NCBI GenBank assembly: GCA_964016885.1 | Contig: OZ024741.1 | Coordinates: 8,308,001 to 8,372,000 of the forward strand | Direction: 5' to 3' | Length of the DNA: 64,000 nucleotides | Source: Eledone cirrhosa | Taxonomy: Eukaryota | Shown here: positions 25,594-25,849 of the stretch, one piece after another | Numbering within the stretch: the first letter of the stretch is position 1 | Layout: each line of letters starts with the position of its first letter | Program-made: the position numbers and the translations under genes | The notes under the pieces: generated by a model | What the model was told of the DNA's origin: nothing | What the model saw: the letters and a program-made list of their open reading frames with translations, nothing else | The model's database searches: none

Positions 25594-25849
25594 TATGTTG
25601 ATTTAACACTTCACTGCTCGCAAGTGTTTTTTAAGCTTCATATCATGTCTCGCTATTTTATCTGATGAGAACGCAAATATCATCCCATGATGATATTTGT
25701 TTTTGAAATGCGCATAATAAAATACATGGAACTCTTTTAACCATCTTTTGATTTTATATTATTTATACTCCAGTCCTATAAACTGTTGAGTGCTTCTTAT
25801 CCGATATTTGCATTGCTTTATTTTGCTACAATAAAACTCACCTCCTACA
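25594..25849 (+). mobile_element. ~255 bp non-coding HHR-bearing element, copy 1
   Basis: Shares both ends (atgttgatttaa...cacctcctacat) with 56048..56304. Confidence 0.8.
25655..25723 (+). ncRNA. Type I hammerhead ribozyme
   Basis: ttttat-CTGATGA-gaacgcaaatatcatc ccat gatgatatttgttttt-GAAA-tgcgca-TA-ataaaa. Confidence 0.85.

What the first reader, a model, noticed from the sequence alone, without database searches (positions are those of the whole stretch)
25594..25849. Defined ~255-bp non-coding ribozyme element with two diverged copies sharing both ends
Seen: 25594..25849 and 56048..56304 both begin atgttgatttaa, end cacctcctacat and abut TA runs. The copies are visibly diverged, yet CTGATGA, GAAA-tgcgca-TA and stem I are invariant. 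Stem II changes keep pairing through G-U (caaatatcatc/gatgatatttg versus caaatattatt/gatgatgtttg). Inference: a discrete retrozyme-like or solo-pLTR family with selection on RNA structure.
Basis: partly seen in the sequence, partly recalled or inferred. Interest (0 to 1): 0.7.

Follow-up and report, generated by a model that had tools for sequence, protein, structure and literature searches.

The report
Penelope retrotransposon end with fixed start
The 256-base repeat is real and carries a predicted self-cutting (hammerhead) RNA, but it is the end piece of a protein-coding Penelope-like jumping gene of the known Hydra clade, and its fixed start likely marks where that gene's RNA begins.

Summary
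Both copies are real (225 of 254 aligned bases identical) and hold a type I hammerhead motif. The unit is not a separate retrozyme. It is the pseudo-LTR plus tail of a Hydra-clade Penelope-like element (PLE): it ends ORF-bearing copies and also lies 79 nt upstream of their RT/GIY-YIG ORF. The genome holds 14,621 unit-start motifs, 842 exact head-to-head junctions and no true head-to-tail tandem. 3' ends fall at two sites (about 170 and 255/256), matching two known internal RT starts. 5' ends are mostly ragged but have a strong hotspot at the unit start: 23 of 59 terminal arms stop there, against 0 of 23 ORF-leading pseudo-LTRs that reach it. Short units are therefore likely copies of a capped RNA 5' end, and long copies likely come from a multimeric or circular template. 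Lineage-level changes spare the ribozyme core, but there is no two-sided covariation within the family. The scan noted similar solo or head-to-head PLE ends before on other DNA.

The parts
25595..25850 (+). Copy A: solo pseudo-LTR plus tail of a Hydra-clade PLE, subfamily A, inserted in (TA)n with no inverted arm
   Evidence: ORF-bearing subfamily-A relative L126
25570..25594 (+). Short repeats of the unit's first bases between the TA run and copy A; likely abortive re-priming at the 5' junction
   Evidence: sequence; similar junction repeats at other loci
25654..25724 (+). Type I hammerhead motif: stem I 25654-25661/25717-25724, core 25662-25668, long stem II 25669-25704, GAAA 25705-25708, palindromic stem III AUGCGCAU 25708-25715, predicted cleavage 3' of A25716
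25768..25850 (+). Tail of about 83 nt between the two 3' end sites; identical in type to the start of the element's 5' UTR
56048..56304 (+). Copy B: long arm (unit plus tail), subfamily B; first 250 nt identical to the ends of long copies L124 and L134
56108..56178 (+). Hammerhead motif of copy B
55879..56047 (-).

Best explanation
The unit is the hammerhead-bearing pseudo-LTR plus tail of a Hydra-clade Penelope-like retrotransposon that inserts into (TA)n, and short copies such as these two are likely by-products made when its reverse transcriptase starts inside the 5' end of the element's RNA and runs off the RNA's start. Shown: identity with the end and the 5' leader of ORF-bearing elements, two fixed 3' ends, head-to-head pairs, and a 5' hotspot limited to terminal arms (about 0.95 for this part). 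Inferred (about 0.6): (1) the GIY-YIG endonuclease nicks both strands of a TA run; (2) each nick primes cDNA at one of two internal sites, near unit position 170 and at 255/256; (3) on a capped RNA that starts at position -2 both cDNAs stop at that start; (4) the two cDNA ends are joined, giving a long and a short arm head-to-head as in copy B, or one arm as in copy A; (5) long and partial-tandem copies come from a template without that 5' end (multimeric or ribozyme-circularised). The hammerhead is predicted to cut as a dimer through its palindromic stem III; it is kept by selection on source elements and decays in inserted copies.
For: Same unit at the 3' end of GIY-YIG-bearing copies and 79 nt before the ORF ATG; 252 exact unit-to-5'UTR junctions. 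Real copy L110 has a 775-aa open frame, a 3,940-bp period and Hydra motifs (criteria from PMC8557442). 3' ends: 191 near 256, 167 at 160-180, 64 classed as running into the UTR, 11 other, of 433 arms from partly overlapping loci. Inverted arm ending at 173 in 14 of 30 tail-selected loci. Two internal RT starts and nicking of both strands were shown in vitro for another PLE (PMC11167929). 842 exact head-to-head junctions, control 0. Hotspot: 23 of 59 arms in chromosome order start at -5..+1, and only 4 of the other 36 end in the next ~55 nt (read by eye). 0 of 23 ORF-leading pseudo-LTRs that reach position 1 stop there (42 examined; Fisher P 2e-4). G at -3, where the template has C: 2,303 against 720 for A. 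Variants shared by many copies: 0 in 24 constrained core and stem I columns against 26 in 106 flanking columns (Poisson P 0.003, or 0.015 with the tail included); the only core variant is at free position N7; 7 of 7 shared stem II variants keep pairing (P about 0.02). Rare changes hit the core (0.009) about as often as the flanks (0.011-0.013).
Against: The start site, the cap and cleavage are untested. The extra G is ambiguous: in 10 of 50 G junctions it can be the templated -3 base of the opposite arm, others fit microhomology or short duplications, and only 6 of 50 G junctions (against 2 of 23 A junctions) abut an arm with no homology. No 5'-end peak at the predicted cleavage site: 1 of 42 and few. 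Pfam and PDB sequence searches did not name the protein; its class rests on motifs and on ESM Atlas neighbours, a minority of which carry GIY-YIG or RVT_1. No phylogeny against published Hydra proteins was built. Samples are small and mostly from contig C1; the share of arms continuing upstream was 36 of 59 in the sample but 5,932 of 14,621 by exact genome-wide pattern.
Confidence: 0.8

Rival explanations
1. Same PLE end, but the fixed 5' end is only a truncation hotspot: the self-complementary CATATG at -3..+3 lets the two nascent cDNAs anneal or fold back, with no transcription start there.
For: The junction in copy B and in 842 loci is a perfect palindrome centred on this hexamer. Junction palindromes were read as self-priming in rotifer PLEs (PMC3846280, passages). 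It also explains the absence of stops at the second pass, when the partner arm is far away.
Against: Arms with no partner (copy A) or with partners ending elsewhere also start at -2. The stronger 8-nt palindrome ATGCGCAT at 114-121 is not a hotspot. G excess at -3.
Confidence: 0.25
2. Solo units are themselves transcribed and remobilised in trans as a SINE-like non-autonomous family.
For: Thousands of solo or twin copies with a common start. A few variants are solo-enriched (12 vs 2, 26 vs 8, 5 vs 0), and solos are slightly closer to each other than to long copies (median 1 vs 2 differences). Non-autonomous PLE derivatives are known (PMC8557442).
Against: Every variant seen in 10 or more of 218 arms occurs in both solo and extended copies. 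B is identical to long copies over 250 nt. Twin arms are antisense to each other.
Confidence: 0.1
3. A non-LTR retrozyme: tandem monomers cut by the hammerhead, circularised and re-inserted.
For: Size (about 256 nt), low GC and a type I hammerhead fit retrozyme monomers (PMC7229834, passages); animal retrozymes are argued to derive from pLTRs (bioRxiv 10.64898/2026.07.22.740005).
Against: One head-to-tail junction match in 3 Gb, and it is a 34-nt tail fragment plus positions 1-165, not a tandem. Copy ends do not sit at the cleavage site.
Confidence: 0.03

Closest known systems
Hydra clade of C-terminal-endonuclease Penelope-like elements (Craig et al. 2021, PMC8557442; passages and part 2 of 59 of supplement read)
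   Same: Single RT + C-terminal GIY-YIG ORF, DKT, CxCX5C linker, no CCHH, CxxC and CxH motifs, (TA)n target, canonical type I hammerhead in the pLTR, partial tandems and inverted 5'-truncated arms.
   Different: Longer (3.9 kb period with a 1.2-kb 3' UTR, against <3 kb); RLRW rather than RWK; 15-bp stem II; tail about 83 nt against 30-40. The hammerhead differs from all those in the supplement table part read, and two probes found no match in the supplement, so it is probably an unlisted family; Repbase was not searched.
Poseidon PAc of Anolis (Frangieh et al. 2024, PMC11167929; parts 1-2 of 4 read)
   Same: Two internal RT start sites that define the tail, AT-rich target, both strands nicked and extended, no RNA or insertion ends at the hammerhead cut site.
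   Different: Other clade; in PAc the starts lie inside the ORF and close together, here both lie in the 5' UTR about 83 nt apart. A fixed 5' end of short products is not discussed in the parts read.
Non-LTR retrozymes (PMC7229834, passages; bioRxiv 10.64898/2026.07.22.740005, parts 1-2 of 5)
   Same: Type I hammerhead in a 150-450-nt non-coding repeat related to pLTRs.
   Different: No head-to-tail tandem arrays; the unit is contiguous with a coding element.

Membership tests
Hydra-clade PLE | Single ORF, RT followed by C-terminal GIY-YIG endonuclease | tested here: met
   L110 775-aa frame with YRDD at 332 and IY..YFG at 654; Atlas neighbours; Pfam gave no hit
Hydra-clade PLE | DKG changed to DKT | tested here: met
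   SDKT
Hydra-clade PLE | CxCX5C linker; no CCHH inside the GIY-YIG core; CxxC and CxH downstream | tested here: met
   CNCRIKNKC, one Cys between the core motifs, CNLC, CLH
Hydra-clade PLE | N-terminal RWK motif | tested here: inconclusive
   RLRWI: RW present, K replaced
Hydra-clade PLE | (TA)n target and canonical hammerhead in the pLTR | tested here: met
Hydra-clade PLE | Groups with Hydra RTs in a phylogeny | not tested
   No reference protein set was retrieved
Type I hammerhead ribozyme | CUGAnGA / GAAA / UH core with three helices in type I order | tested here: met
   G10.1 pairs with U or is A-U rather than G-C; no Rfam match
Type I hammerhead ribozyme | Covariation of helices | tested here: inconclusive
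   Within family 1 of 26 pairs two-sided, no better than shuffles; across 10 motifs from related repeats 9 of 12 pairs two-sided, 0 of 500 shuffles, but these were picked by a pairing descriptor
Type I hammerhead ribozyme | Self-cleavage | not testable with these tools
   Needs in vitro assay; palindromic stem III predicts dimer cleavage (PMC4209133)
Non-LTR retrozyme | Head-to-tail tandem repeats, each with a hammerhead | tested here: not met
   1 junction match in the genome, not a tandem
Non-LTR retrozyme | Expressed monomeric circular RNA | not testable with these tools
   Needs RNA data from this organism
Independent non-autonomous (SINE-like) family | Diagnostic changes confined to short copies | tested here: not met
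   All variants in >=10 of 218 arms shared with long copies; weak solo enrichment at a few sites

The most novel reading that the evidence does not exclude
The genome records two RNA templates of one PLE. A capped linear mRNA starting at -2 can only give solo or twin pLTRs, because its usable RT starts lie near its 5' end. Full-length and partial-tandem copies need a hammerhead-cut, circularised RNA, which is why ORF-leading pLTRs never stop at the RNA start (0 of 23 against 23 of 59). This would be genomic support for the circular intermediate proposed by Cervera and De la Pena (PMC4209133) and would explain why the ribozyme is conserved although it is dispensable for RT in vitro.
Probability: 0.3. 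Interest if true: 0.65.

Novelty: new member of a known kind. Interest (0 to 1): 0.3.

Why it matters
As an element it is ordinary: one more Hydra-clade PLE family whose ribozyme-bearing end is scattered in over ten thousand arms. The useful part is mechanistic. How PLEs make partial tandems and inverted pLTRs, and what their hammerhead is for, is unresolved. Here the copy ends give a likely transcription start, two RT starts, and a contrast between short and long copies that makes the linear-versus-circular template question directly testable by RT-PCR across the predicted circle junction.

Tried and rejected
Rfam scans gave no hammerhead match. A genome DNA search with copy B returned 0 candidates; this is a filter effect, since patterns later found thousands of B-type starts. 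No RNA holder listed, so no reads were laid. Pfam and PDB did not recognise the protein. Naiad was rejected (endonuclease is C-terminal) and Neptune/Nematis/Poseidon were rejected (no CCHH, DKT). A 5'-end peak at the cleavage site was looked for and not found. The one ORF-leading copy flagged at the hotspot was a misclassification. The cap-G test is only suggestive. Paper searches listed no paper whose title or abstract start reports a fixed 5' start of solo pLTRs; most listed papers were not read, subscription journals and Repbase are not covered, and bioRxiv supplements are closed.

Full report
Observation. Copy A (25595-25850) and copy B (56048-56304) align end to end with 225 of 254 bases identical. 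Rfam gave no hammerhead match. The motif was read directly: 6-8-bp stem I, CUGAUGA, a 15-bp stem II with one C-U mismatch, GAAA, palindromic AUGCGCAU, and a predicted cut after AUA.

What the unit belongs to. A genome search with A gave 1,281 candidates; the 40 scored were 98-100% identical. Of 30 loci, 11 continue upstream in shared sequence, and that sequence leads into a GIY-YIG and RT reading frame. Searching with the N-terminal part of the RT frame, 7 of 30 loci carry the whole unit just upstream of the ORF, 79 nt before the ATG; 252 exact unit-to-UTR junctions exist. Both window subfamilies have ORF-bearing partners: L126 for A, and L110 for B with a 775-aa open frame, 3,940-bp period and 1.2-kb 3' UTR. 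B's first 250 nt occur unchanged at the ends of long copies L124 and L134. The protein has DKT, a CxCX5C linker, no CCHH, CxxC and CxH, which are the Hydra-clade marks of Craig et al. (PMC8557442, passages). Pfam and PDB did not name it; ESM Atlas neighbours score 0.95-0.98 and some carry GIY-YIG or RVT_1. Its hammerhead is not among those in the supplement part read.

3' ends. Arms end at 255/256 or near 170, each running into TA repeats: 191 and 167 of 433 arms from partly overlapping loci. In 14 of 30 tail-selected loci an inverted arm ending at 173 abuts the long arm. This matches the two internal RT starts and two-strand nicking shown for the anole element PAc (PMC11167929, parts 1-2 of 4); applying it here is inference.

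5' ends. In a sample chosen on the tail alone, 5 of 30 loci start at -2..+1 (one is copy A itself), 2 at 9-11, 14 inside the unit and 9 extend upstream, so the family is mostly ragged. The shared start is nonetheless a hotspot. There are 14,621 exact unit-start motifs, 842 exact head-to-head junctions there and 5,932 with the templated upstream bases. In chromosome order, 23 of 59 arms start at -5..+1 while only 4 of the other 36 end in the next ~55 nt (by eye). Of 42 ORF-leading pseudo-LTRs examined out of 252, 23 reach position 1 and none stops there (Fisher P 2e-4). The base at -3 is G in 2,303 and A in 720 arms where the template has C, as expected if a cap were copied (recalled expectation; the search gave no source). 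Junction analysis of the first 50 G and 23 A sites shows that many G's can also come from the opposite arm or from microhomology, so this is suggestive only. The context TTCATAT resembles an initiator (recalled consensus). There is no peak at the predicted cleavage site, in line with PAc.

Not a retrozyme or a separate SINE. One head-to-tail junction matched in 3 Gb and it is a fragment join; tandem organisation defines non-LTR retrozymes (PMC7229834, passages; bioRxiv 10.64898/2026.07.22.740005, parts 1-2 of 5). Among 124 solo and 94 extended arms every variant seen 10 or more times occurs in both groups, though a few are solo-enriched.

Selection on structure. In 180 distinct arms, variants shared by many copies avoid the constrained core and stem I (0 in 24 columns against 26 in 106 flanking columns; P 0.003, or 0.015 counting the conserved tail). 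The only core variant is at N7, one stem III variant is a CpG-type change, and 7 of 7 stem II variants keep pairing (P about 0.02). Rare changes hit the core about as often as the flanks, so inserted copies decay neutrally. On 78 haplotypes only 1 of 26 pairs changes on both sides, no better than shuffles. Across ten motifs from related repeats in this genome 9 of 12 pairs change on both sides, with the caveat that they were chosen by a pairing descriptor.

Mechanism. Most likely the element's protein nicks both strands of a TA run and primes at the two internal sites; on a capped RNA starting at -2 the cDNAs run off after about 170 and 256 nt and are joined head-to-head (copy B) or integrate singly (copy A). 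Long copies pass position 1 twice without stopping the second time, which points to a multimeric or circular template; a ribozyme-made circle was proposed by Cervera and De la Pena (PMC4209133, part 1 of 4 and passages). The main rival is annealing at the CATATG palindrome, close to the self-priming idea in PMC3846280 (passages); it is weakened by unpaired arms that start at the same base and by the lack of a hotspot at the stronger stem III palindrome.

Verdict. A new family-level member of a known kind; interest 0.3. Earlier scan notes, looked up after my reading was formed, report similar solo and head-to-head PLE ends on other DNA; they are unchecked and not counted as support.

Noticed in passing
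window 14603-19666, - strand: A second Hydra-type element in partial tandem: two 717-bp pLTRs (97% identical), each with a hammerhead-like core (19043, 14696), flanking a broken RT/GIY-YIG ORF at 18685-16259 that is 45% identical to this family's protein.
   Followed up: partly
window 53173-53237, +: Another short TA-flanked repeat with a type I hammerhead motif of a related family (palindromic stem III, different stem II).
   Followed up: partly
window 22406-25525, - strand: Broken RT-type ORF pieces with a long Asn-rich insert, apparently another PLE, directly left of copy A.
   Followed up: no
window 8371-12565, - strand: LINE-like element: a 924-aa frame with endonuclease and RT motifs (read by eye) and an upstream 360-aa frame with two Cys/His repeats.
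   Followed up: no
window 39996-41306 and 3652-4067: Further remnants similar to the Hydra protein, 30-45% identity.
   Followed up: no
L075:952-1016, L085:498-563, L031:4751-4816, L003:1252-1312, L126:6383-6445, L092:1382-1443, L025:753-818: Seven or more other repeats with the same hammerhead build and mostly palindromic stem III, several as head-to-head pairs.
   Followed up: partly
window 5762-6700 and 53916-54854: 939-nt dispersed repeat in inverted orientation, 91% complementary.
   Followed up: no
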